Virus record (IMG/VR): IMGVR_UViG_3300033153_007754
Span: 32,001 to 96,000 of that record
DNA: 64,000 nucleotides
From: a virus
Direction: 5' to 3' (one strand)
Both the position numbers and the translations under genes were made by a program. Of the stretch, positions 14,249-63,187 are shown piece after piece; position 1 is the first letter of the stretch, and every line of letters starts with the position of its first letter. The notes under the pieces were generated by a model, which saw nothing but the letters and a program-made list of their open reading frames with translations, was not told the DNA's origin and searched no databases.

Positions 14249-14330
14249 ACTTCAGAGTCATACTAAACTTGTAAGAACCTGGAAGGTTCCCAAGTCTTCC
14301 TTATTATATGACCCTCTTTTCCACTTTCAA
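14245..14330 (-). ncRNA. candidate TnpB reRNA/omegaRNA 3' scaffold
   Basis: nested stems GGGTCATA/TATGACTC and ACTTG-GAACC/GGTTC-CAAGT overlap the tnpB 3' end and run to the putative right end. Confidence 0.5.
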
Positions 14331-15882
14331 AAAAATCTGTTATAATTTTCTTTACTGCAGAATGTTTTAAATTCTTTTTACAATTCCATTCATATCCATT
14401 AAATTCAAGAAGTTTTTTATTTAGAACATCTAAAGTTATTCTTTCTTTAATATTAATGGATGAATTATAATCAGCATTTAAAGTTTTATTACATTTTGTA
14501 CATTTGAAAACTTCTTGCTCTTTTCTATTATTAGAATCTATATTTCCACAAGAATTACATCCCTGAGATGTATATTCCGGATGAATATAAGAAACATTTA
14601 CATTATGTTTGTGAGCTATTTTTCTTATTTTTGTTTTTAAAGAACTTAAATTTAGTAATCTTATCAGTCTGCCATTATTAATATTAAATTCTTTATTATT
14701 ACTTCTTAATTTTGATATTAAATCTAAATCTTCAAGAACTAAATGATTAAAGCCTTTGGACTTAGCTTTTTTGATTAATTCTACTGATTTTTCAATAATC
14801 ATATTTTGAATAACAAGTAACCATCTATCATATTTCTTTCTTCGTTTTACTGACAATGCCTTAGATTTTCTATTATCTATTTTTTTTAAGAATTCAGTAT
14901 ATCTACTCATCAAGTCTCTATCATAATCTATTGTGAAACCACCTGATGTAGAAAATAAATTATGTTTAATATTAACATCTATTCCTAGAAAATTAAAATT
15001 ATTAGTAGGAATTTCTTCAATTCCTTTCTTTGAAAGGATAATTCTTTCTATTTTTTTACCATTAAAATGAATAGTATAAATTTTAGAAAATTCTTTTTTA
15101 TTTCCATGATATTTATTAGATATTTTTACTGGAACATGTAAACCTTTTTTATAATTATCATATCCACCAACAGATATAAATCCATTTACTTTAGATTTAT
15201 TATTTTTATTATCATTGATAATATTTATTTTTATCCTACTTTGAGATTTAAAAGATAATGATTTGAAATTGTGTACTATTATTGTTTTCAATAATCTATT
15301 TCTTTTAGATAAAGCTAGTTTTAATAATCTATTTAAGCTAAACTTATTAATAGTATCAAGTACTTGAATGTAAAATATTTTTATACTTTCATTCTTGAAA
15401 TCATCTTCTTTTATTTTATTATTTAAATATCTTTCTATCTCTTCATATCCATATTTAGATAGAAAAGACAAGGTTTTTGTTAATCTTGTTGTTTTATATT
15501 TCAGTTCAAAAGATTTTAAATCATTTTTCTTATGAAATGAAGTATTTTTTTTATAATATTTAATATTTATTGACTTTTGTATTTTAAAGCTTAAGTTAGT
15601 TTTTACGCTTTTAAAACTATTTTGATAAGTTGTCATAACTTCAGTAACTGCCCACTCTTTGTCTTTTCCTGTAAGATTATTGATTTTTCCTTTTGTGTAT
15701 TTTTTAATAAAATCGAATTTACTCATATTACTATGTATAATAATATCTTCTTGAATTAATTTAGAAATTTTATTTTTAAACAAGTTTATATCTTTTGCTT
15801 TTTGATAAATCTCTTGATATTTTTTATCATTTAGATTATCAATATATAAAAATTTAGATAATACCTGTTTATTTTTAATCAT
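14263..15882 (-). CDS. tnpB: RNA-guided endonuclease TnpB (long, 539 aa)
   Basis: RuvC-I GIDVN, RuvC-II VLEDL, YTSQGCNSCG..FKCTKC zinc finger, RuvC-III NADYNSSINI. Confidence 0.92.
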   Translation of the reverse strand: MIKNKQVLSKFLYIDNLNDKKYQEIYQKAKDINLFKNKISKLIQEDIIIHSNMSKFDFIKKYTKGKINNLTGKDKEWAVTEVMTTYQNSFKSVKTNLSFKIQKSINIKYYKKNTSFHKKNDLKSFELKYKTTRLTKTLSFLSKYGYEEIERYLNNKIKEDDFKNESIKIFYIQVLDTINKFSLNRLLKLALSKRNRLLKTIIVHNFKSLSFKSQSRIKINIINDNKNNKSKVNGFISVGGYDNYKKGLHVPVKISNKYHGNKKEFSKIYTIHFNGKKIERIILSKKGIEEIPTNNFNFLGIDVNIKHNLFSTSGGFTIDYDRDLMSRYTEFLKKIDNRKSKALSVKRRKKYDRWLLVIQNMIIEKSVELIKKAKSKGFNHLVLEDLDLISKLRSNNKEFNINNGRLIRLLNLSSLKTKIRKIAHKHNVNVSYIHPEYTSQGCNSCGNIDSNNRKEQEVFKCTKCNKTLNADYNSSINIKERITLDVLNKKLLEFNGYEWNCKKNLKHSAVKKIITDFFESGKEGHIIRKTWEPSRFLQV

Positions 15883-43058: not shown

Positions 43059-44147
43059 CTAAACAATACCCATCTCAATCAAATTAAAAATAAAATTTTC
43101 ATAATTACTGACAGTTCCAGCAAAAGTATCAAAGTTTAACGAATCTATATACCCATTTAATATAGCTGGTTGTAGAATATCTAATTTCACCACAATATCT
43201 TTTAATAAAATTGTATCAACATAACCATATTTAATATATTTTTTGTAATCATTTAAGTATAACTTTTCAAGGTTACCTTCATCGTGGTAATTAACTTTCC
43301 CATATTCATCACCTAAAATTGTTTTTGCAACATAATCTAAAGAATATTTTGGAAGTGGTGGGTAATACACTTTTAATAAATCCATACTATCTATCTGTGA
43401 AACCCCCAAAATATCAACAGCATCATATTCACCAAATTTATCCCTGCCTGTATAAGTTCTTACCTTACCAAAAGGTGAAAAGTTCTTACCACCGAGACCA
43501 ATTTTTTCAGCACGATAATAGAGATATGGGTCATCAAATTTAGAACCATTATGTGCTATTATGATATCATTATTTTCTTTTAAATATTCAAAGAAATGTG
43601 ATATTAAATCTTTTTCGTTTTCAAAATGTTTATAATAATCATATGTCTGAGTATAATCTTCTTTGTAACCAAAAGCAAAACTATGTTTTTTATTAAAATC
43701 ATAACCTGTTATTAGTGTTACAGCGTGTTTGGCTTCTTTAACATTCACTCTTTTACCATCGAACCTGGTTTCTATGTCATAATAAAGTGGCCGTGGAATG
43801 TTTAAATCCATTAAATCTACATCCAAACTAAAGTTTTTACTGATATATTGACACTCTATAGTATCAACACCATACAAATCTATTTCACCATCTTTTTTCA
43901 ATGTTCGTAATAAATTTTTATATTCTTTAATGTCGTTTGATTTATATTCAGCAACATTAACACCTTCTATTGTAACACAAGTGTTTTCACTTTCATTTGC
44001 AGATTCTATATATAACCTTAAAGGCATTTGTTTTATTATTTTTGAAACATATTCTAATGTCATAAAATCATAATATTTTAAATATAATTTATTTCTATAT
44101 TCCTTGATATAAGTATATTGTTGTTTTATTTCCATGTTATTACCCAT
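43059..44147 (-). CDS. family B DNA polymerase, N-terminal/3'-5' exonuclease part (gp43A-like)
   Basis: ExoI YYDIET, ExoII HNGSKFDDPYL, YSLDYVA, ExoIII YGYVD. Confidence 0.9.
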   Translation of the reverse strand: MGNNMEIKQQYTYIKEYRNKLYLKYYDFMTLEYVSKIIKQMPLRLYIESANESENTCVTIEGVNVAEYKSNDIKEYKNLLRTLKKDGEIDLYGVDTIECQYISKNFSLDVDLMDLNIPRPLYYDIETRFDGKRVNVKEAKHAVTLITGYDFNKKHSFAFGYKEDYTQTYDYYKHFENEKDLISHFFEYLKENNDIIIAHNGSKFDDPYLYYRAEKIGLGGKNFSPFGKVRTYTGRDKFGEYDAVDILGVSQIDSMDLLKVYYPPLPKYSLDYVAKTILGDEYGKVNYHDEGNLEKLYLNDYKKYIKYGYVDTILLKDIVVKLDILQPAILNGYIDSLNFDTFAGTVSNYENFIFNLIEMGIV

Positions 44148-48074: not shown

Positions 48075-48371
48075 TTATAGAAAATCGTTAATACCATTGC
48101 TTTTTTTATTTTTCTTGAATTCATTAAAGAAATAACCACCATCTTTATATAGTTTCTGAATTCTATCTTTAAAAAAGCCTGGCATATTTTTATTGAAATC
48201 ATCTAATTCATTATCATCTTCTACGTTATACATACTCAACGCATTTACTAATAATTTAGCTATATTATCACCTTCTACATAATCTTCATAAACTTTATTC
48301 CAAATTATGTTATAAAATTTATTCTTTAGTGCTGTGTCATTTTTTAAATCTTTAAAGCTGTGAAAATCCAT
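48075..48371 (-). CDS. hypothetical protein coupled to the PolB gene (weak gp62-like resemblance)
   Basis: TAATG overlap with the polymerase stop; LLVNALSMY. Confidence 0.45.
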   Translation of the reverse strand: MDFHSFKDLKNDTALKNKFYNIIWNKVYEDYVEGDNIAKLLVNALSMYNVEDDNELDDFNKNMPGFFKDRIQKLYKDGGYFFNEFKKNKKSNGINDFL

Positions 48372-50287
48372 TAAAAGTACTCCCTAAAATTGTTTGTTTT
48401 TTTCAATTGCCATCCGGCCGCCCCTAATAAAATATTTAAACTAGATAGATAAAAAGCATCAAATTGTAAATCATAATCTATATCAGTTACAAAATATTTC
48501 ATCATTTCTAAATTTCTAAAAGTGATTGTATCACCTTTACCCGTAAATTGTTTATTTGCCTTTAAATACACGAAATAAGCATAATCACCATTTTCAATAA
48601 AAGATGTTGGGATATTGTGTTTTCTAATTAAATAATTACAATAAGCTGCGCCCCTAAGTATTGGAGTTGCTTTTGGTTGTATTACATAATCAGCTTTTTT
48701 TATTATCTTATTATCTTTAAATAATTTTCTATAAGTATTTATCTTATAAGCATTTTTTAATGCATTATGTGTACTATATTCTTTTATATATTTGTGATAT
48801 TTATTTACCTTTGTGTTTTGTGCAATTTGTGTTATATCCATAGTTTTAAATTCTTTTCTTATTTTTTCAACAAATCCCCTTAATTCATCAATTTTATTTC
48901 TAAATATTATATCAACACTATGTTCTAACCACTTTGTTATAACAACCGGGTACGAAACATTTTTTGTAGATAACCCCGTTGTTTTTAATTTGTATGGTGT
49001 AAAAAACTTACCTTCGTCATACAAAGTTTTCATTACGTATTTTTTCTTTTCAACGTGCAAAGCCGCTTCATTAATCTTTTCAATTTTCATTTTCATTTTA
49101 TATTCAAATTTATTAATATAGTCACTACTATTTTTAAATGTTGTATCAATTATTGGTTGTGCAACCTTTTCATTAAATACTAAAATATCATTAATTAGTT
49201 CCTTGTTGGTTGCATAGACTTTGTTTTTATATAGTGCCTGTATAAGTGGGTCAATATTTACGTAAACCGAATCTGTGTCTATATATATAGATGGTTCATA
49301 ATCTTTGTAATCTGGAAACATAATTTTAAAATTATCTGTTACGGATTTAGCAATAGATTTAATATAATATTGGCTTAAAGATGTTATTGCATTTGCAACA
49401 TCCAAATCATAATATTTGTAATAAGCATTCGCAAAAGCACCATAACCCTTGTTTAAATTCCGTTTAAATGCTAAATCTTTCGTTCTGTAAACCCTTTCTT
49501 GTTCACCCCAATATTTAATGTTCTTTTCGTCATTGTTTTCTTTAGCTTTATTTAATCCATCAATAGCATTACTTCTATGTGCTTTTGCAACTAAACGTTT
49601 ATCATATAAATAATTCATAGCCACACACATAACACTTTTCTTGTTTAGTTTAAAAAACATAAGATTTGGTGTTACTGATAAATTATACTTTTCTAAAAAA
49701 CCACCAAAATCTATTGTTCTTGTTACCATCAAATCTATTGTTGCGGCTAAAATATCTCTATAAAGTGGGTCACTCGATTTTCTATATAAAATGTTAAAAT
49801 ATGATTTTGGAAATTCAAAACTTAATAAATCATCTTTTCTATATTCATCTGTTTTAATTAATAAGTATTCCCCACCTCTTTTAACTGCAATTCTTTTACC
49901 TTCTTCAATTTTTTCTTTTTTTAATTTACCAGTTCCATCAAAAAAATGATGATAAAAAGTAGAACCCTTTCTGCTATACATAGACTTTGTCATTTTCTTT
50001 ATAGGAACGTGTCTACCTTTGCCAGTTTCAAACACATTGAATATCTCAACCTGTTTAAATAAATGTTCCCTAAAGTCAATTGGTAAATCAGCCAACATTA
50101 TTTTATTTTCCTTTCCAATATTAGCTGTCATAATAGCGGATGGATATTCCGAGTTAACATCAAAAGACATTGTAAAACCATACAATCCACGTTTAGTTAA
50201 ATAATTATAACCACCCAAATAAGGGTACTTTTCTGAATGTGCAACAAAACGCCCACTAACCAATTTTCTATTCATATTTTGCACCAC
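48371..50287 (-). CDS. family B DNA polymerase, polymerase domain (gp43B-like)
   Basis: YLGGY, motif A FDVNSEYPS, motif B KRNLNKGYG, motif C YIDTDSVY, KKKY, IDYD. Confidence 0.93.
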   Translation of the reverse strand: MVQNMNRKLVSGRFVAHSEKYPYLGGYNYLTKRGLYGFTMSFDVNSEYPSAIMTANIGKENKIMLADLPIDFREHLFKQVEIFNVFETGKGRHVPIKKMTKSMYSRKGSTFYHHFFDGTGKLKKEKIEEGKRIAVKRGGEYLLIKTDEYRKDDLLSFEFPKSYFNILYRKSSDPLYRDILAATIDLMVTRTIDFGGFLEKYNLSVTPNLMFFKLNKKSVMCVAMNYLYDKRLVAKAHRSNAIDGLNKAKENNDEKNIKYWGEQERVYRTKDLAFKRNLNKGYGAFANAYYKYYDLDVANAITSLSQYYIKSIAKSVTDNFKIMFPDYKDYEPSIYIDTDSVYVNIDPLIQALYKNKVYATNKELINDILVFNEKVAQPIIDTTFKNSSDYINKFEYKMKMKIEKINEAALHVEKKKYVMKTLYDEGKFFTPYKLKTTGLSTKNVSYPVVITKWLEHSVDIIFRNKIDELRGFVEKIRKEFKTMDITQIAQNTKVNKYHKYIKEYSTHNALKNAYKINTYRKLFKDNKIIKKADYVIQPKATPILRGAAYCNYLIRKHNIPTSFIENGDYAYFVYLKANKQFTGKGDTITFRNLEMMKYFVTDIDYDLQFDAFYLSSLNILLGAAGWQLKKTNNFREYF

Positions 50288-50512: not shown

Positions 50513-51610
50513 CTAATCTAAATCCATTGGCATTATATAATAATTAGTTTTAATACTACTATTTAATTTAGGATACACTCTAATTACTTCATCATTCTGA
50601 ATAAAATCAAATACCACTTCATTACTTTTCAATTTTTTTAATATTAACTCTAAAAAATGACCAGACAATCCTATTTGATTTATTTTATATTTGGATAATC
50701 CTATTTTAATTTTAGACTTTAATTTACTGTTATCAAAATCGTTTGTTCTTAAATACATGTTTTTACCATCAAGTGAATCTAATATAATTAAAAATGTATC
50801 TTTATTACTTAAAGCATTGATATCTGTAACATTTTTCAACAAACGTTTTCTATTAAAAAACAAAAGATTACCATTCTCTCTTGTTATAGATTCCCAGTTA
50901 ATAAAATCATTCCCTTGTGTTAATTCCCAGATTTCAAAATACTTGTTTTTAACACAAAACATATTATTACTTTTATCATAACTAATTTGTACTTTTAAAT
51001 TATTATTTCGGTATGGTGTTAATACTTTTATTAGATTTATTACAAATGTATTGTGTAATAAGAATTGGTATTCAACATCAGTTTGTTTAAAAATATTGAC
51101 ATTATTATGTGCTAATATAAAACTATTAGTTCCTATTATACCCTTATTACCAATACACACATTTTGTAATCTTTTTTTTGTAACATCTTTAGATGTCATT
51201 TCAGCAACATTTTCTAACTTTTCCAATAAACTGTTTAATGATATTTCACCCTTTAATTCATATTTGCTTATGTTTTGCGGATAAACAAAGCCATTATCAT
51301 GTAAATTCTCCACAACAAAGTTATATTTTTTATTAGAAATTTCGATTGAATCAAACAATTTCACCTCTGTTTGATAATCACTTAGATGGTTTTTAATTTT
51401 TAGTAAAACCTGTGGATTAAAGAATATGTTTTTAGTTGTTTCCTTGTTGATAGTAACGTTTTTTGGTAGATTGTATATAATACCACCACCTTCACTAATT
51501 CTTGCTACCAGCGCCTTTTTTTTAACATCCAAACAGACTGGATTGAAATTAAAATCCATAGTATTTAAAAAATTGGTTACACTGGTTATTATCGTATTAA
51601 ACTTTTGCAC
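50513..51610 (-). CDS. dnaN: DNA polymerase III beta-clamp (DnaN)-like protein
   Basis: 365 aa; SKDVTKKRLQNV, GTNSFILA (cf. ATDGHRLA), GNDFINWESI, IGLSGHFL, terminal YYIMPMDL. Confidence 0.78.
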   Translation of the reverse strand: MQKFNTIITSVTNFLNTMDFNFNPVCLDVKKKALVARISEGGGIIYNLPKNVTINKETTKNIFFNPQVLLKIKNHLSDYQTEVKLFDSIEISNKKYNFVVENLHDNGFVYPQNISKYELKGEISLNSLLEKLENVAEMTSKDVTKKRLQNVCIGNKGIIGTNSFILAHNNVNIFKQTDVEYQFLLHNTFVINLIKVLTPYRNNNLKVQISYDKSNNMFCVKNKYFEIWELTQGNDFINWESITRENGNLLFFNRKRLLKNVTDINALSNKDTFLIILDSLDGKNMYLRTNDFDNSKLKSKIKIGLSKYKINQIGLSGHFLELILKKLKSNEVVFDFIQNDEVIRVYPKLNSSIKTNYYIMPMDLD

Positions 51611-51702
51611 TATTAAAACTCCATTAAATATATTGTTTGTATTATAATGTAGTTGTAATATTTAATAAATATTTTTATGCAATGTTTTTTAAGGGGGTTG
51701 TT

Positions 51703-51804
51703 ATGGCAACATGTAAGTGTGGTAGTAGTAGAACTGTAATGGGTGATGATGGTGTTTTGTATTGTGTTAGTTGTGGAAAAAAATTAAGTGGTGGTAGAAA
51801 ATGA
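51703..51804 (+). CDS. 33 aa zinc-ribbon miniprotein
   Basis: MATCKCGSS...LYCVSCGKK; GGGGG RBS; ATGA overlap with the next gene. Confidence 0.6.
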   Translation: MATCKCGSSRTVMGDDGVLYCVSCGKKLSGGRK

Positions 51805-52361
51805 TAAAATTAATAACAAAAATAATTGATTTAATAACCTTAATATTTACTTTTTGGAAAGATAGAAAAAATAAAGACGATGTTAAAACAACTGGCATCA
51901 ATTCACTGAATGATTTAAATCTTACAACAGACGATTTTACAAATTTATGGTTACTAGCTAATGATAATAAAAATAAATTGATAAGATTAAGATTGAATAA
52001 AAAACAAAAAAAAGCAAATAAAGGTAAAATTGTGAACTGGGAAAAACAAGATGGGAAATCAACAATAATTTTATTACAGATTTTTATGGCTATGATAAAA
52101 GAAGTTAATAACGGAAAAAAATTTGGTTTAATATTAGATAGTGTTAGTAGATTTCAAAAAGTTGCTACTTTTTTAAAAGAAATCCAAAGCGCAAATAACA
52201 ACCTAAGGAATAATTTTAGTCTTTTAAAAATAGAAACAAACAAAACAATTACTTGTGATATAAATAACACTAAATTATACATAACATCTAAAAGAAAAAA
52301 AGATGATGATTTTAAAGCGCTTGATTTAAATTTTTTATTTGAGGATATAAATGAGATATAA
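51801..52361 (+). CDS. truncated, degenerate terminase-ATPase-like protein
   Basis: collinear similarity to the gp17 N-terminal ATPase from the Walker A to the Walker B region. Confidence 0.6.
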   Translation: MIKLITKIIDLITLIFTFWKDRKNKDDVKTTGINSLNDLNLTTDDFTNLWLLANDNKNKLIRLRLNKKQKKANKGKIVNWEKQDGKSTIILLQIFMAMIKEVNNGKKFGLILDSVSRFQKVATFLKEIQSANNNLRNNFSLLKIETNKTITCDINNTKLYITSKRKKDDDFKALDLNFLFEDINEI

Positions 52362-52935
52362 CAAACATTTTAGATGGTTTCTTGCATCTAATATTAATAA
52401 TAACCCAGCTTTAACATACGAAACAAAGCCGTTTATTGCTTTTGGTTATAACCCTGCTGTAAATACTGATACTGAACCTGATTTTAGTGATTTCGTGGGT
52501 GGTGGGTTTAATAAACTGGATAAAATAAAAATAGTTAAAGATAAAGAATTACTGGAAACACCACATATAACTATAAATGGTAGAGATTATTTATATCTTT
52601 CTAGTGTTTCCAACTTCGATACTTTTGATGACATAATTGGAAGTGTAGATATAAGTAAAGACGATGTTTTTTATCACTTACATTTACAAAAAGCTGTTGA
52701 TTTAACATACTATAAAAACAATACAATCCATGATAAAATTAATCAAATATTAATATTTTTAATTAAAAATAAAACTGGTTCGCCTTACAAATATGATGAT
52801 TACACACTTGATGAATTAAATTGTGATAATCTAACATCTGATTATGAGATAATCCCACTTGCTTTACAGTATACAACTATTTTAGATTTATCAGCCACTT
52901 CGGAATTATATTTTCAATTTGATGTAATTATTTAA
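52351..52935 (+). CDS. hypothetical, possibly baseplate (gp8-like) protein
   Basis: GAGG RBS; terminal YFQFDVII strand. Confidence 0.45.
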   Translation: MRYNKHFRWFLASNINNNPALTYETKPFIAFGYNPAVNTDTEPDFSDFVGGGFNKLDKIKIVKDKELLETPHITINGRDYLYLSSVSNFDTFDDIIGSVDISKDDVFYHLHLQKAVDLTYYKNNTIHDKINQILIFLIKNKTGSPYKYDDYTLDELNCDNLTSDYEIIPLALQYTTILDLSATSELYFQFDVII

Positions 52936-52995: not shown

Positions 52996-53511
52996 ATGAA
53001 AAAGAATGAAGTCATTTTATCAATAAAATATGGTAAAAATGATAAATTAGAAGATTTATTTGGCACAATAAAAGAAAAAGGTTATGAAATGGAAATAATC
53101 GAATATAAAAATAGGTTTAATTTCTTTTCTTTCATTAAAAATATCTGGAATAAAATAAAAAAAACATATAATAAATATAATATTGAAATTGGTGGTGTTA
53201 TATTTGTAGTTGTTTTTATTGTGGTGGTGGGTTTATTAGGTCAATCTCTTTTCAAATACTTGAGTGAATCACAGCGAAAAAGTGATGATGAATATAAACA
53301 ATATTTGAAGACAACTATAGAAAAAAATATTACAATTGGTGTATCTAAAGATTGCTTAATAAAGTATAAAAAACCAGCAAATGAATTAATTCGTAATATA
53401 TACAAGGATAGATATTCTGATATAGGTTCTTCACCAAAAAAGGATAAAGAAATAGAACTTGAAATAAACAAATCTTTAAATGAACTATGTGAAGGTTTTG
53501 TTAATGAATAA
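52996..53511 (+). CDS. single-TM protein, paralogue family member 1
   Basis: central TM helix, two C-terminal Cys. Confidence 0.75.
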   Translation: MKKNEVILSIKYGKNDKLEDLFGTIKEKGYEMEIIEYKNRFNFFSFIKNIWNKIKKTYNKYNIEIGGVIFVVVFIVVVGLLGQSLFKYLSESQRKSDDEYKQYLKTTIEKNITIGVSKDCLIKYKKPANELIRNIYKDRYSDIGSSPKKDKEIELEINKSLNELCEGFVNE

Positions 53512-53533: not shown

Positions 53534-54049
53534 ATGGATAAGAATGAAGTTGCATTATTAATTAAATATAATGAAGAGGATAAGTTAGAAAACCTGTTTT
53601 TAGGAATCAAAGAAAAAGGTTACGAAATGGAGATAATTGAATATAAAAGGAAGTTTAAACCCGTTTCGTTTATTAATATTATTTTATCTGGATACAAGGA
53701 TATATATATTAAATATTATAGAGAAATCTGGGTTACTATAATCTCAATATTTTTTTTACTTCTAATATCAGTTACATACACATTCACCTCTGATTTAGCA
53801 AAATCCTTAAATAAAAATGATGATGGTGGGTATGATTTATTTTTAAAGAAAAGTATACAAAAAAATATTACAATGGGTGTGTCTGGGTCTTGTTTAAAAA
53901 CATATAGTAAAACAGCAAATAATATTATTAAGAAAATATACACCCATAATCGTACTAATATAGGTTATTCACCCAAAGAAGATAATAAAATAAATAATAA
54001 AATAAACAAGTCTTTAAATGGACTATGTGAAGGTTTTGTTAATGAATAA
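53534..54049 (+). CDS. single-TM protein, paralogue family member 2
   Basis: same length as member 1, shares IKEKGYEMEIIEYK and LCEGFVNE. Confidence 0.75.
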   Translation: MDKNEVALLIKYNEEDKLENLFLGIKEKGYEMEIIEYKRKFKPVSFINIILSGYKDIYIKYYREIWVTIISIFFLLLISVTYTFTSDLAKSLNKNDDGGYDLFLKKSIQKNITMGVSGSCLKTYSKTANNIIKKIYTHNRTNIGYSPKEDNKINNKINKSLNGLCEGFVNE

Positions 54050-54373
54050 ATGGAGATGTATATGGAAGATTTATTGGGTTCAATTTTCACCGTAATTGTA
54101 GTTTTTGGTTCTTTCCCAGTAATACATAATTTTATAACCAAGGATTACCAGGAAACAAATAAAAAGCGCAATGACTTCAAGAAAAAACAAGTAGAACTAG
54201 TTATTAAAAAAGGTGTGTCAGAAGTATGTATTTTAAAGTATAAAAAATCAAGCAATAAAATAATCAATGACATTTATTATAAACATAAAAGGGTGATTGG
54301 AGAAAGCTTTAAAAAAGATACTGAAATTGAATATGAAATATATGATGCATTAGAACAATTATGTGGTGTTTAA
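54050..54373 (+). CDS. single-TM protein, paralogue family member 3
   Basis: GVSEVCILKYKK...LCGV. Confidence 0.7.
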   Translation: MEMYMEDLLGSIFTVIVVFGSFPVIHNFITKDYQETNKKRNDFKKKQVELVIKKGVSEVCILKYKKSSNKIINDIYYKHKRVIGESFKKDTEIEYEIYDALEQLCGV

Positions 54374-55337: not shown

Positions 55338-55852
55338 TTATATAACTTCTTTACCATTAAGAAATAATATTTCATACTCTTTAGTGCCATCTTTTTTCCC
55401 AGCCTTATAAATTGCCTGATATGACATTATCCCGTTTTCATACCACGCAATTTCAATACCATCTTGATATCCATTTTTAAACTTCCGTTCTAATTCTTTA
55501 TATCATAATACCATGTTGCCAATCCATGGATTTCCCCATTTTTATAATTAAATTCTTCTACTTTTTTACCACCAACCCACCTTAAACAAGTTTTACCATG
55601 TAATTTACCTTTTTTATAATGTTCAACTAATCTTAAACCAGAAAAAAATGACACAAATCTACCATGTTTTTTTCCATTTTTATAATAACCTTTTTCTTCA
55701 ACCTCACCATTATCATCCCATTCAATAAATATACCATGCAACCTATCTTTATTATAATGTTTTATAGCCTTTAAATCACCATTCTGGTATTCTCTGTGTT
55801 CACCATTTTTAACAATCTTCTTTTCTTTCTTAATTGATTTGCTTTTAGTCAT
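55338..55852 (-). pseudogene. MORN-variant repeat protein, frameshifted near 55500
   Basis: YKNGKKHG-type repeats continue in another frame (KELERKFKNGYQDG..WYENG..YKAGKKDG) after the TAG at 55490. Confidence 0.65.
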
Positions 55853-56235: not shown

Positions 56236-56514
56236 TCATTTGATTTTGCATATCTCATTGATTAGTTTAATTGCAGGAATTACATCAACTGTGCCACTCA
56301 TTTTTTTTTCTTTTTCTGATATTATATTTAACATAGATTTAACACATTTATTTTCCAACATTTCGATTGTTTCAAAATGTTTTGATATTATTGGTGAATT
56401 ATATTTTTTTCCTTCTTTAAATACAATAACAATTGTTACAAAAAAGGTAATAATGGATAAAATGATAATGTAAGGTATAAGGAAATCAATCTTATTAAAT
56501 AATTTATTTAACAT
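56236..56514 (-). CDS. single-TM protein with two Cys (family member 4)
   Basis: ENKCVKSM...INEIC. Confidence 0.65.
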   Translation of the reverse strand: MLNKLFNKIDFLIPYIIILSIITFFVTIVIVFKEGKKYNSPIISKHFETIEMLENKCVKSMLNIISEKEKKMSGTVDVIPAIKLINEICKIK

Positions 56515-56773
56515 TTTTAACACCACACATCTCATTGATTTCTTTAATTATTTTAATTCTCTTACTACTGCTTTCCCCTGATGTTTTTATCATAGAATTA
56601 ACACACTTATTTTCAGATAACCCCATAACACTATAATGGTTTGATAGTTTTTTATGCGTTTCCCCATTTTCATTGTGTTCATCAATTAATATTATAGTTG
56701 CTGTTATAAACATGAGAATTAACACAATAAAGAATGTACTCATTACATAATCCATAAAATTCATATCGTTCAT
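56504..56773 (-). CDS. single-TM protein with two Cys (family member 5)
   Basis: ENKCVNSM...INEMCGV; AGGAGG RBS. Confidence 0.65.
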   Translation of the reverse strand: MNDMNFMDYVMSTFFIVLILMFITATIILIDEHNENGETHKKLSNHYSVMGLSENKCVNSMIKTSGESSSKRIKIIKEINEMCGVKNVK

Positions 56774-61663: not shown

Positions 61664-63187
61664 ATGAAGCTAGAAAATATAGAAGAAGAACTAACGTATT
61701 ATAATGGTTTAAATAACTTAAGAGGTATTAAAACTAAAGTAAAGCCACTCACAAAATTACAAAAAGTTAAAACAGCTTTATGTAAACAAAATGTCGAATA
61801 TTTCGCAGAAGAATATTATTACATTGTATCACAGGACAACGGAAGACATAAAATAAAACTAAGAGATTACCAAAAAACTATGATTAAGATGCTGTTGAAT
61901 GAAGACAGAGTTGTTATGAATACGTCAAGACAAATTGGAAAAACTGTTGTGACTGCTATTCCCATACTACATTATGCATTATTTAATGAAGCTAAATTAA
62001 TTGGGATAGCAGGGGATAACTTAGCTACTGCAAAAGAAATTTTAGATAGAATAAAAAGCGCATATATGGAATTACCAATTTGGCTTCAAAAACCTGTCGT
62101 AAAATGGAATGAAAAAGAGGTTAGATTTGCTGATGGCACACGAATATTAGCGCAAGCAACAACGGGTTCAACATTTCGTGGTTTATCTATGAATTGGGTA
62201 TTTGTTGATGAAACAGCTTTTGTCGATGATTTGCTATGGGCTGCCTTTACTGATGCTTTTTTGGCCACTGTTGCTGATAGTGTTACTGCAAAAATAACAT
62301 ACACTTCAACACCAAATGGATACAACCATTTCCATCGAATATGGACTGATGCGGTAAATGGTGTATCCAATTTTAAACCATTTCAGGTGGTTTGGACTGA
62401 TGTAAAAACAAGGAATGAAGCATGGAAAATTAAAACCATGAAAGATATTGATGCAATAGATAAAGAAAGTGCTTTCAGGCAAAACTATTGCGGTGAATTT
62501 ATAACCACTGGAACTACTTTTATTAAACAGGGTATAATAGAAAAGCTATCTTACCTTACAGCTTTAAACGCAGATGATGGCAAAGATTATCTAAACATAT
62601 ATGAAAACCCTCTTAAAAATCATATATATTCAATTGGTGTTGATTTAGGTAAAGGTGTTGGTAAGGATTTTACAACAATACAAATTGTTGATATAACAGA
62701 TGTGGATAATATCAAGTTAGTTCTATCATTCAGGCATAATAATATCGGTAGTATAGAAATAGCACCAATAATTGAATTCTTTTCTGTTTATTATAACAAT
62801 GCATATACATTAGTAGAAAATAACAAATTTGATGTTGCTGATGATTTATTCTATAATTATGGATTTGATAATCTAGTGCATAACAAAGATAATGGTGTTG
62901 CAGGTATATATACAGATAAAAAAACAAAACCTATTATGCTTAATAATCTTAAATATTTAATAACAAATAATAAATTACATATTCCCGATTACCACACTAT
63001 AAACGAATTAGCTCATTTTGTTGTTAAAAATAATGGTTCAATAGAAGCTGATTCAGGTCACCATGATGATACTATTATGGGTTTAGCATTAGCACTATAT
63101 GTTTTAAAATTAGGAGTTGTGGATAATGACCAGGAATCTATAACGAGAGAAGTTAAACAAAAAGCAATTGTATCATTTTTATTATGA
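61664..63187 (+). CDS. terL: terminase large subunit (T4 gp17-like)
   Basis: LRDYQ, SRQIGKT, FVDE, TSTPNG, GVD.GKG...DFT and HHDD.IM motifs. Confidence 0.95.
   Translation: MKLENIEEELTYYNGLNNLRGIKTKVKPLTKLQKVKTALCKQNVEYFAEEYYYIVSQDNGRHKIKLRDYQKTMIKMLLNEDRVVMNTSRQIGKTVVTAIPILHYALFNEAKLIGIAGDNLATAKEILDRIKSAYMELPIWLQKPVVKWNEKEVRFADGTRILAQATTGSTFRGLSMNWVFVDETAFVDDLLWAAFTDAFLATVADSVTAKITYTSTPNGYNHFHRIWTDAVNGVSNFKPFQVVWTDVKTRNEAWKIKTMKDIDAIDKESAFRQNYCGEFITTGTTFIKQGIIEKLSYLTALNADDGKDYLNIYENPLKNHIYSIGVDLGKGVGKDFTTIQIVDITDVDNIKLVLSFRHNNIGSIEIAPIIEFFSVYYNNAYTLVENNKFDVADDLFYNYGFDNLVHNKDNGVAGIYTDKKTKPIMLNNLKYLITNNKLHIPDYHTINELAHFVVKNNGSIEADSGHHDDTIMGLALALYVLKLGVVDNDQESITREVKQKAIVSFLL

What the first reader, a model, noticed from the sequence alone, without database searches (positions are those of the whole stretch)
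51703..52361. Stand-alone, catalytically degenerate 'pseudo-terminase' ATPase domain, coupled to a Zn-ribbon miniprotein
Seen: the 186 aa ORF aligns collinearly with the ATPase of this window's own gp17. IVNWEKQDGKS matches VMNTSRQIGKT, KKFGLILDS matches KLIGIAGDN, LKEIQSANNNL matches LDRIKSAYMEL, NNTKLYITS matches DGTRILAQA, and FKALDLNFLFEDI matches FRGLSMNWVFVDE. It ends right after Walker B, lacks the catalytic Glu, the coupling motif and the nuclease domain, has K in place of the Walker A Arg, and carries a new hydrophobic N-terminal helix. It follows a TAAATA late-type motif and is ATGA-coupled to a 33 aa CxC..CxxC peptide. Established: terminase ATPase folds are recognised by Avs/STAND anti-phage sensors. 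Inference: a decoy against terminase-sensing immunity, a packaging regulator, or a dominant-negative weapon against competing phages. I know of no described system like this.
Basis: partly seen in the sequence, partly recalled or inferred. Interest (0 to 1): 0.82.

Follow-up and report, generated by a model that had tools for sequence, protein, structure and literature searches.

The report
Degenerate mini-copy of terminase ATPase
A distant T4-like phage carries a small intact gene that is probably a very diverged, cut-short and enzymatically dead copy of the front half of its own DNA-packaging motor. Similar stand-alone terminase look-alikes are already described in T4 and its relatives, so this is an unusual new variant of a known kind, and its job is unknown.

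Summary
The ORFs are real and lie as described. A 33-aa CxC..CxxC peptide (51703-51804) overlaps by ATGA a 186-aa ORF (51801-52361). The ORF uses native codon usage and cannot be open by chance.

The collinear match to the phage's own TerL (61664-63187) reproduces, but it is statistically weak:
- BLASTP E 0.013
- hhalign probability 3%
- TerL-profile shuffle p about 0.003
- no Pfam hit

Four further lines support it:
- ORF186 is the best non-TerL hit of a TerL profile in the whole genome.
- It matches 8 of 23 conserved TerL positions (1 of 2000 shuffles does).
- Its independently predicted secondary structure tracks the TerL model (Q3 0.65 against 0.34 for shifted registers).
- ESM Atlas neighbours, by features and by structure, are terminase-ATPase clusters. 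A neighbouring ORFan used as control gives baseplate clusters instead.

I put about 75% on true TerL descent.

ORF186 keeps Q-x-G-K-S and the Walker B Asp. It has lost the adenine Gln, both conserved Arg (now Lys) and the catalytic Glu, and it stops 4 residues after Walker B. It therefore cannot be a motor.

The kind is not new. T4 vs.8 (Evans 2026), phiM12 gp17.2 and the Rak2-like 'truncated terminase' are described, and this scan has noted such copies in other phages. ORF186 is a singleton and not a detectable member of those families. The decoy idea is untested.

The parts
51664..51671 (+). AATAAATA, a 7/8 match to the T4 late-promoter octamer, 31 nt upstream of the mini-ORF start
   Evidence: Read from the sequence. 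TATAAATA is not enriched in the window (34 found, 31 expected). [T/A]ATAAATA is 4.5-5.4x enriched 15-60 nt upstream of genes, against 2.2-2.7x for control AT octamers. A compatible but unproven promoter.
51690..51696 (+). Shine-Dalgarno AAGGGGG, 6 nt before the ATG of the Zn-ribbon mini-ORF
   Evidence: Sequence.
51703..51804 (+). 33-aa CxC-(14)-CxxC peptide (Zn-ribbon-like); its stop TGA overlaps the ORF186 ATG (ATGA)
   Evidence: Pfam Zn_Ribbon_1 E 0.018 and Zn_ribbon_RRN7 E 0.035, both below the curated cut-offs. Coding score 0.53 per codon in frame. No significant relatives in phage records.
51801..52361 (+). ORF186 (P0002): probable degenerate, truncated terminase-ATPase paralogue
51801..51872 (+). 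Residues 1-24: hydrophobic or amphipathic N-terminal helix (MIKLITKIIDLITLIFTFW...), a borderline membrane anchor
   Evidence: The AF2 single-sequence model gives a helix at 2-24. Kyte-Doolittle 19-residue mean 1.66, with K3, K7 and D10 inside.
51927..52358 (+). Residues 43-186: region collinear with TerL residues about 43-186 (helix, hairpin, P-loop strand, two beta-alpha units, hairpin, Walker B strand)
   Evidence: BLASTP. MAFFT with diverse TerL N-domains, invariant Q83, G85, D182. Secondary-structure agreement Q3 0.65.
52041..52061 (+). Walker A-like E81-K82-Q83-D84-G85-K86-S87 (TerL S-R-Q-I-G-K-T): Gln, Gly and Lys kept, Arg replaced by Lys
52314..52319 (+). K172-A173 in place of the conserved TerL R-G, 10 residues before Walker B
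52326..52349 (+). Walker B-like strand L176-N-F-L-F-E-D182, followed by I183 in place of the catalytic Glu; the stop codon comes 4 codons later
61664..63187 (+). The phage's genuine large terminase (507 aa), the reference for the comparison
   Evidence: PHROG terminase large subunit E 3e-46. Pfam Terminase_6N 49.5 bits. AF2 model pLDDT 88.

Best explanation
ORF186 is a real gene. Residues about 43-186 are a very diverged copy of the first half of a T4-type large-terminase ATPase domain, running from the helix and hairpin before the P-loop to the Walker B strand.

It keeps the P-loop Gln-x-Gly-Lys-Ser and the Walker B Asp. It has lost the adenine-binding Gln, has Lys in place of both conserved Arg (Walker A, and the R-G motif before Walker B), and has Ile in place of the catalytic Glu. 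It stops 4 residues after Walker B.

It therefore lacks several parts: the two core strands that flank the P-loop strand in ASCE ATPases (the one carrying the coupling motif and the last one), the lid subdomain and the nuclease. It cannot hydrolyse ATP as TerL does and cannot package or cut DNA.

It belongs to the now-described kind of stand-alone terminase-ATPase-derived accessory proteins of T4-superfamily phages (T4 vs.8, phiM12 gp17.2, Rak2-like 'truncated terminase'). It is an independent or unrecognisably diverged, more degenerate example. It has a hydrophobic N-terminal helix and is made together with a 33-aa Zn-ribbon-like peptide.

Inferred, not shown: it acts by binding. As a terminase look-alike it would engage something that normally contacts the TerL ATPase face, either a packaging partner or a host terminase sensor. 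It may be held at the membrane by its N-terminal helix, or that helix may cover the core left exposed by the missing strands.
For: The gene is real.
- The 186-codon frame stays open in 0 of 200,000 shuffles.
- Its codon score equals that of TerL.
- It has an ATGA overlap with the upstream ORF, and the next ORF has a GAGGA ribosome-binding site.

TerL likeness.
- Collinear BLASTP alignment of 137 residues.
- Best non-TerL ORF of 726 against a 121-sequence TerL-N HMM, reached by 14 of 5000 shuffles.
- 8 of 23 positions that are at least 80% conserved in TerL are matched, reached by 1 of 2000 re-aligned shuffles.
- MAFFT with diverse TerLs puts Q83, G85 and D182 in invariant columns.
- The secondary structure from a single-sequence AF2 run agrees with the high-confidence TerL model along the alignment: Q3 0.65 against 0.34 +/- 0.08, and none of 363 shifted registers reaches it.
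- ESM Atlas: the annotated feature neighbours are Terminase_6N, GpA_ATPase and TerL_ATPase clusters. The Atlas's own model has TM 0.59-0.66 to terminase-N clusters. The neighbouring ORF194 gives baseplate clusters instead.

Lost residues were read from alignments.

The kind exists.
- vs.8 is homologous to the T4 TerL ATPase (PMC13601566; my profile check gives probability 96%, E 1.5e-9).
- phiM12 gp17.2 (196 aa) matches this phage's TerL residues 40-216 at E 2e-17.
- Rak2-like phages and phiM12/phiN3 are noted in PMC5259590.
Against: - No standard tool calls the homology significant: Pfam Terminase_6N gives no hit, hhalign probability is 3%, and phmmer over 1.84 billion representatives finds no TerL.
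- By raw Smith-Waterman score another ORF of the genome beats TerL.
- The ESM feature scores (0.89-0.90, 151 shared features) are in the range the tool calls 'lead only'. The feature and structure searches count as one source, and both lean on the same language model.
- The AF2 single-sequence model is poor (pLDDT 47.7).
- There are no relatives at all, so neither conservation nor selection between species can be shown.
- A fragment lacking the strands on both sides of the P-loop strand may not adopt the TerL fold at all.
- The binding mechanism is pure inference.
Confidence: 0.55

Rival explanations
1. Chance resemblance. ORF186 is a lineage-specific ORFan (an alpha/beta protein with a hydrophobic N-terminus, like the small membrane proteins downstream). 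It merely contains a GKS tripeptide and a hydrophobic-Asp stretch at terminase-like spacing.
For: - Weak statistics.
- Another ORF scores higher in raw Smith-Waterman.
- No Pfam or PHROG terminase hit.
- Strong K/N/I/L compositional bias in a 26% GC genome.
Against: Several partly independent tests all point to the same family and the same register. The control ORFan does not give terminase. Identities are concentrated at TerL-invariant positions: Q, G, K, L137, N149, N157, D182.
Confidence: 0.22
2. Immune decoy or anti-defence protein. The TerL-like fragment binds terminase-sensing host proteins (Avs1-3, Upx) without activating them, or soaks them up.
For: - Avs2 binds the TerL ATPase domain.
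- The TerL-like small proteins vs.8 and Ksap2 bind or activate Avs2. The authors suggest such proteins may be anti-defence factors that Avs2 learned to sense (PMC13601566; PMC11564622).
- Upx is modelled to bind unfolded core strands of the ATPase domain, and the ATPase domain alone suffices. A fold-incomplete fragment would offer such strands.
Against: - The only tested look-alikes trigger Avs2 rather than block it.
- EcAvs2 contacts the terminase-bound ATP, which ORF186 may not bind.
- ORF186 lacks strands beta4-beta6, which the Upx model uses.
- The host and its defences are unknown.
- There is no direct evidence here.
Confidence: 0.12
3. Nucleotide-binding switch completed by a partner. 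ORF186 still binds ATP through GKS and the Walker B Asp. It becomes a whole domain only when another polypeptide (the co-translated Zn-ribbon peptide, TerL, or another copy of itself) supplies the missing strands.
For: The Walker A Lys/Ser and the Walker B Asp are retained while other residues drifted. ATGA coupling to the Zn-ribbon peptide suggests joint synthesis.
Against: The adenine-binding Gln and both Arg are lost. A 33-aa Zn ribbon cannot replace two core strands and a helix. No partner is indicated by any test.
Confidence: 0.06
4. Functionless remnant of a partial terL duplication on its way to loss.
For: It is a singleton with no relatives. The catalytic residues are degenerate and the protein is truncated in the middle of a domain.
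Against: - A 186-codon frame cannot stay open by chance at 26% GC (0 of 200,000 shuffles).
- Codon usage is native.
- Divergence to 22% identity implies a long time during which the frame was kept.
- The gene is tightly packed in an operon with overlapping starts and stops.
Confidence: 0.05

Closest known systems
T4 vs.8 family (T4p119, 219 aa; 175-193 aa in other Tevenvirinae; PHROG 1488); Evans et al. 2026, PMC13601566
   Same: Small stand-alone protein of a T4-type phage, encoded away from the packaging genes and derived from the TerL ATPase domain. Similar size, with an N-terminal extension followed by the Walker A to Walker B core. Pairwise similarity to TerL is as weak as for ORF186 (vs.8 against this TerL: E 0.12; Pfam Terminase_6N E 0.14), yet the family profile matches TerL at 96% probability.
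   Different: vs.8 keeps DGGRQ[ST]GK[ST], R-G and IIDEP (Arg, Gln, Lys, Asp-Glu intact), and one more strand (LFFVIGMQ) after Walker B. ORF186 has lost the Arg, the Glu and that strand. There is no detectable similarity between them (BLASTP E 1.5; profile probability 0.2%), and the vs.8 HMM finds no orthologue in this genome. vs.8 is conserved in about 1000 phage records; ORF186 is a singleton.
phiM12 gp17.2 (196 aa) and the 'truncated large terminase' of Rak2-like jumbo phages (CBB_274); Buttimer et al. 2017, PMC5259590
   Same: A truncated copy of the N-terminal part of TerL, of about 190 aa, in T4-superfamily phages. The TerLs of phiM12-type phages are among the closest cultured relatives of this phage's TerL (35% identity). 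gp17.2 covers TerL 40-216, nearly the same stretch as ORF186.
   Different: gp17.2 sits between terS and terL. It is easily recognised (E 2e-17 to this TerL), keeps Walker A Arg/Lys, R-G and Asp-Glu, and extends to the coupling-motif strand. ORF186 lies 10 kb from terL in another operon, is far more diverged (E 0.057 to gp17.2) and stops earlier.
Ksap2 (Bas60_220, 111 aa), an activator of KpAvs2; Bechon et al. 2024, PMC11564622
   Different: No sequence similarity to ORF186 (E 1.6). Ksap2 has no Walker motifs reported. Its binding to Avs2 is shown by experiment, whereas nothing is shown for ORF186.
T4-type large terminase TerL (gp17; Pfam Terminase_6N + Terminase_6C)
   Same: Collinear with TerL residues about 43-186. 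Shares the Q-x-G-K-[ST] P-loop, the N-x-[ST]-[KR]-h hairpin and the Walker B Asp.
   Different: No adenine-binding Gln, no Walker A Arg, no catalytic Glu, no coupling motif, no lid subdomain, no nuclease. 186 aa against 507 aa.

Membership tests
Large terminase TerL, T4 type (Pfam Terminase_6N/6C) | Match to the Terminase_6N profile above the curated cut-off | tested here: not met
   No Terminase_6N hit at E up to 1. A six-frame scan of the genome with PF03237 finds only the true TerL.
Large terminase TerL, T4 type (Pfam Terminase_6N/6C) | Walker A [ST]-R-Q-x-G-K-[ST] with the conserved Arg | tested here: not met
   E-K-Q-D-G-K-S: Gln, Gly, Lys and Ser are kept, Arg is replaced by Lys.
Large terminase TerL, T4 type (Pfam Terminase_6N/6C) | Walker B hhhhD-E with the catalytic Glu | tested here: not met
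   LNFLFED-I: the Asp is kept, the Glu is replaced by Ile.
Large terminase TerL, T4 type (Pfam Terminase_6N/6C) | Coupling (C) motif strand, lid subdomain and RNase H-like nuclease domain | tested here: not met
   The protein ends 4 residues after the Walker B Asp. No TerL-like remnants in any frame downstream.
ASCE P-loop NTPase fold | P-loop strand and Walker B strand in one five-stranded parallel sheet (order 5-1-4-3-2) | tested here: inconclusive
   Predicted secondary-structure elements track TerL up to Walker B, but the equivalents of strands 4 and 5 are absent from the sequence. The AF2 single-sequence model is too poor (pLDDT 47.7). The ESM Atlas model resembles terminase-N fragments at TM 0.59-0.66.
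T4 vs.8 family | Match to a vs.8 family profile; motifs DGGRQ[ST]GK[ST], R-G...IIDEP, C-terminal LFFVIGMQ | tested here: not met
   hhalign probability 0.2%, BLASTP E 1.5. The motifs seen in the vs.8 alignment are absent. ORF186 is not among the top hits of the vs.8 HMM in this genome.
gp17.2 / 'truncated large terminase' beside terL | Clear sequence similarity to TerL-N and a position between terS and terL | tested here: not met
   E 0.057 to gp17.2 with the Walker A motifs aligned. ORF186 lies about 10 kb from terL in a different, divergently oriented operon.
Zn-ribbon (for the 33-aa peptide) | Two Cys pairs about 14 residues apart; profile match | tested here: inconclusive
   CxC-(14)-CxxC is present. 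Pfam Zn_Ribbon_1 and Zn_ribbon_RRN7 score 15 bits, below the cut-offs of 25-27.

The most novel reading that the evidence does not exclude
ORF186 is a deliberately fold-incomplete terminase fragment. With the strands on both sides of its P-loop strand missing, it would expose TerL-type beta-strands. It could then act by strand complementation in one of two ways: capping or poisoning assembling TerL subunits (its own, for timing, or a rival phage's), or serving as bait for host sensors such as Upx, which are modelled to bind unfolded terminase ATPase strands. The N-terminal helix would hold it at the membrane and the Zn-ribbon peptide would act as a co-factor.
Probability: 0.06. Interest if true: 0.75.

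Novelty: new variant of a known kind. Interest (0 to 1): 0.32.

Why it matters
Stand-alone terminase-ATPase look-alikes are turning up in many tailed phages, and the first one tested, T4 vs.8, is seen by the host sensor Avs2. What these proteins do for the phage is an open question.

ORF186 would be the most stripped-down example so far. It has no catalytic Glu or Arg residues, ends at Walker B, and carries a hydrophobic N-terminal helix. If it is functional, it shows which part of the TerL fold suffices for the look-alike role, and that catalysis is not needed.

On its own the case is weak. It is one gene in one metagenomic genome, with borderline homology statistics and no functional data.

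Tried and rejected
- **Homologue searches for ORF186.** All were empty: 5.8 billion clusters, tblastn of phage records and IMG/VR. phmmer over 1.84 billion representatives gave one hit, a repeated 17-residue match in an Fn3 repeat protein, which is spurious. DNA search of phage records found nothing.
- **Relatives of the phage.** The clamp-like neighbour gave no relatives. TerL gave only relatives at 25% identity or less in IMG/VR and 38% or less in the protein collection, apart from a 99% copy on a 4.9-kb contig. Synteny and dN/dS could therefore not be examined.
- **Exact look-up of the protein on other contigs.** Nothing found.
- **Sequencing-run search** for population variants and expression.
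- **Fold searches with the AF2 single-sequence model** (pLDDT 47.7). The PDB by Foldseek, VIA-align wide, the ESM Atlas by shape and BFVD gave only generic or meaningless matches. This says nothing either way.
- **Profile search for short TerL-N-like proteins with an alignment containing ORF186**. It returned fragments of one unrelated TerL clade, mostly on short contigs. Not informative.
- **Co-fold of TerL with ORF186 residues 40-186**. No answer (score 0.00), so no evidence for or against binding.
- **ORF194 as a frameshifted continuation of a longer TerL-like gene.** Rejected. It has no TerL similarity, and its Atlas neighbours are baseplate-type clusters.
- **vs.8, gp17.2 or Ksap2 membership.** Rejected or unsupported.
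- **Weak Pfam hits** CrAss_Ring_2 (E 0.011) and AAA_14 (E 0.087), and PHROG 27188 (E 0.0035). All are below any useful threshold.

Full report
**Setting**

The window is bases 32001-96000 of a 153.5-kb viral contig with direct terminal repeats. Its GC content is about 26%. It is a distant T4-type myovirus.
- It has a baseplate wedge gene, a split family-B DNA polymerase, an RNR large subunit and a clamp-like gene.
- It has a 507-aa large terminase at 61664-63187 (PHROG E 3e-46; Pfam Terminase_6N 49.5 bits).
- That TerL is only 33-38% identical to its nearest relatives. Among cultured phages the nearest include the Sinorhizobium phiM12 group.

**What is at the locus**

A short operon on the + strand diverges from the clamp-like gene (50513-51610, - strand).
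- A 33-aa ORF at 51703-51804 (CxC-14-CxxC), preceded by AAGGGGG.
- ORF186 at 51801-52361, whose ATG overlaps the upstream TGA (ATGA).
- ORF194 at 52351-52935, overlapping ORF186 by 11 nt and preceded by GAGGA.
- Three paralogous single-pass membrane proteins.

ORF186 is a real gene. None of 200,000 nucleotide shuffles keeps its frame open. Its in-frame codon score (0.354 per codon) equals that of TerL (0.353) and lies within the range of the genome's long genes, while all other frames are negative.

**Does it resemble the terminase?**

By sequence statistics this is weak.
- A 121-sequence TerL N-domain profile gives 6 bits.
- hhalign gives P 0.013, probability 3%.
- Pfam and PHROG give no terminase hit.
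- In raw Smith-Waterman score another ORF of this compositionally biased genome beats TerL.

Four further tests point the same way.
1. With the TerL profile and all filters off, ORF186 is the best of 725 non-TerL ORFs in the genome. Only 14 of 5000 shuffled versions reach its score.
2. Identities fall on the conserved TerL columns. Of 23 aligned positions that are at least 80% conserved among 119 TerLs, ORF186 matches 8. Only 1 of 2000 shuffled and re-aligned sequences reaches 8. MAFFT with TerLs only 23-25% identical to this one puts Q83, G85 and D182 in invariant columns.
3. The secondary structure AF2 predicts for ORF186 from its single sequence agrees with the confident model of the phage's TerL (pLDDT 88). 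Along the sequence alignment Q3 is 0.65. For 363 shifted registers the mean is 0.34, the SD 0.08 and the maximum 0.55. The order of elements is the same: hairpin, helix, P-loop helix, strand, long helix, hairpin, strand. The exception is the Walker B stretch, residues 176-181, which the single-sequence model predicts as helix rather than strand.
4. In the ESM Atlas, the annotated nearest clusters by language-model features carry Terminase_6N, GpA_ATPase or TerL_ATPase. The Atlas's own model of this protein (pTM 0.58) has TM 0.59-0.66 to terminase-N clusters.

The Atlas scores are in the tool's 'lead only' range, and the two searches share one model. However, the neighbouring ORFan ORF194, of the same size and composition, gives baseplate-type clusters instead.

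My own AF2 single-sequence model was too poor (pLDDT 47.7) for fold searches to mean anything.

Taken together I put about 75% on true descent from a TerL ATPase domain and about 22% on chance.

**Anatomy, if it is homologous**

Against the TerL invariants G60, Q70, R89, Q90, K93, P138, D182, E183 and A185, ORF186 compares as follows.

| TerL feature | ORF186 |
|---|---|
| Q90, G92, K93 (P-loop) | kept (Q83, G85, K86) |
| L137, N149, N157 | kept |
| D182 (Walker B Asp) | kept |
| R89 (Walker A Arg) | Lys (K82) |
| R172 of the R-G motif, 10 residues before Walker B | Lys (K172) |
| G173 | Ala (A173) |
| E183 (catalytic Glu) | Ile (I183) |
| Q70 (adenine-binding Gln) | lost |

The protein stops at residue 186. 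In the TerL model the domain continues with a helix, the strand carrying the S-T coupling motif (210-215), another helix and a last strand (238-242).

In ASCE ATPases the sheet order is 5-1-4-3-2; this is established knowledge of the fold, not tested here. Those two missing strands therefore lie on either side of the P-loop strand. ORF186 cannot form a complete TerL nucleotide site on its own and cannot be a motor or a nuclease.

The first 24 residues are a hydrophobic helix with K3, K7 and D10 inside (Kyte-Doolittle mean 1.66). This is a borderline membrane anchor, or a helix that covers the exposed core. Residues 44-50 (DDF...W) may still correspond to the conserved TerL Y-F...Y motif.

**What is known**

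- **T4 vs.8.** Evans et al. [quoted passage not shown] I fetched vs.8 (219 aa) and eight homologues of 175-193 aa. Their profile matches my TerL-N profile at 96% probability, E 1.5e-9. This also serves as a positive control for the method.
- **Truncated large terminases.** Buttimer et al. 2017 (PMC5259590) note one beside terL in Rak2-like phages and in phiM12 and phiN3. phiM12 gp17.2 (196 aa, between terS and terL) matches this phage's TerL residues 40-216 at E 2e-17.
- **Ksap2.** Bechon et al. 2024 (PMC11564622) describe it as a small Avs2 activator with weak structural likeness to a TerL ATPase.
- **This scan's own notes** list many 'dead terminase-ATPase mini-copies' in other phages. I used them only as leads to the papers.

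ORF186 is not a detectable member of any of these families.
- vs.8: BLASTP E 1.5, profile probability 0.2%, and no vs.8 orthologue in this genome.
- gp17.2: E 0.057, though with the Walker A motifs aligned.
- Ksap2: E 1.6.

Unlike vs.8 and gp17.2, ORF186 has lost the Arg and Glu residues and the strand after Walker B. It lies 10 kb from terL, and it has no relatives at all.

**Mechanism**

*Shown:* an intact, native-looking gene; a probable TerL-derived region; loss of the catalytic residues and of half the domain; translational coupling to a Cys4 peptide.

*Inferred:* it works by binding rather than catalysis, as a terminase look-alike. Whether the partner is a packaging component or a host terminase sensor cannot be decided here. 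The published precedent, vs.8, triggers Avs2 rather than blocking it. That argues against assuming a decoy, but the authors themselves raise an anti-defence origin.

A co-fold of TerL with ORF186 gave no answer and counts neither way.

The upstream AATAAATA is compatible with a T4-type late promoter. It cannot be told apart from AT-rich background.

**Verdict**

The 'pseudo-terminase' reading is probably right. The claim of complete novelty is not. The functional ideas are untested. This is a new, more degenerate variant of a known and currently topical kind, represented by a single metagenomic gene.

Noticed in passing
window 52996-53511, 53534-54049, 54050-54373 (+): Three tandem paralogues of a single-pass membrane protein with a conserved Cys-containing C-terminal domain (51% identity, E 7e-49; 36%, E 1e-15). 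No Pfam or PHROG family. Two small membrane proteins at 56236-56535 and 56504-56773 (-) share an 'ENKCV.SM' motif and may be related.
   Followed up: partly
window 52351-52935 (+): ORF194, directly downstream of ORF186 and overlapping it by 11 nt. It has no sequence hits, but its ESM Atlas neighbours are 'baseplate wedge 3 tail fiber network component' clusters (PF25691; score 0.94, 198 shared features). This hints that the operon may contain a structural (late) gene.
   Followed up: partly
window 43059-44147 (-) and 48371-50287 (-): The family-B DNA polymerase is encoded as two separate ORFs (exonuclease half and polymerase half) about 4 kb apart, with other genes between them (PHROG 262 matches positions 3-362 and 378-768).
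   Followed up: no
window 50513-51610 (-): A 365-aa protein with a weak DNA pol III beta-clamp C-terminal match (Pfam E 0.063; PHROG 947 'processivity factor' E 3e-14), next to the polymerase half. This is unusual for a T4-type phage, which normally uses a gp45 clamp.
   Followed up: no
window 14263-15882 (-): A 539-aa ORF with transposase PHROG hits (E 4e-20) inside the phage genome.
   Followed up: no
window 55490-55852 (-): A 120-aa protein with MORN-repeat variant matches (Pfam MORN_2, 26.9 bits, just under the cut-off).
   Followed up: no
L019:9254-9913 (T4 vs.8) and loci L020-L027: vs.8 homologues outside Tequatrovirus are annotated inconsistently ('hypothetical protein', 'internal head protein', 'terminase large subunit'). 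In T4 the ORF is 219 aa, but most relatives start about 40 codons later (175-193 aa).
   Followed up: partly
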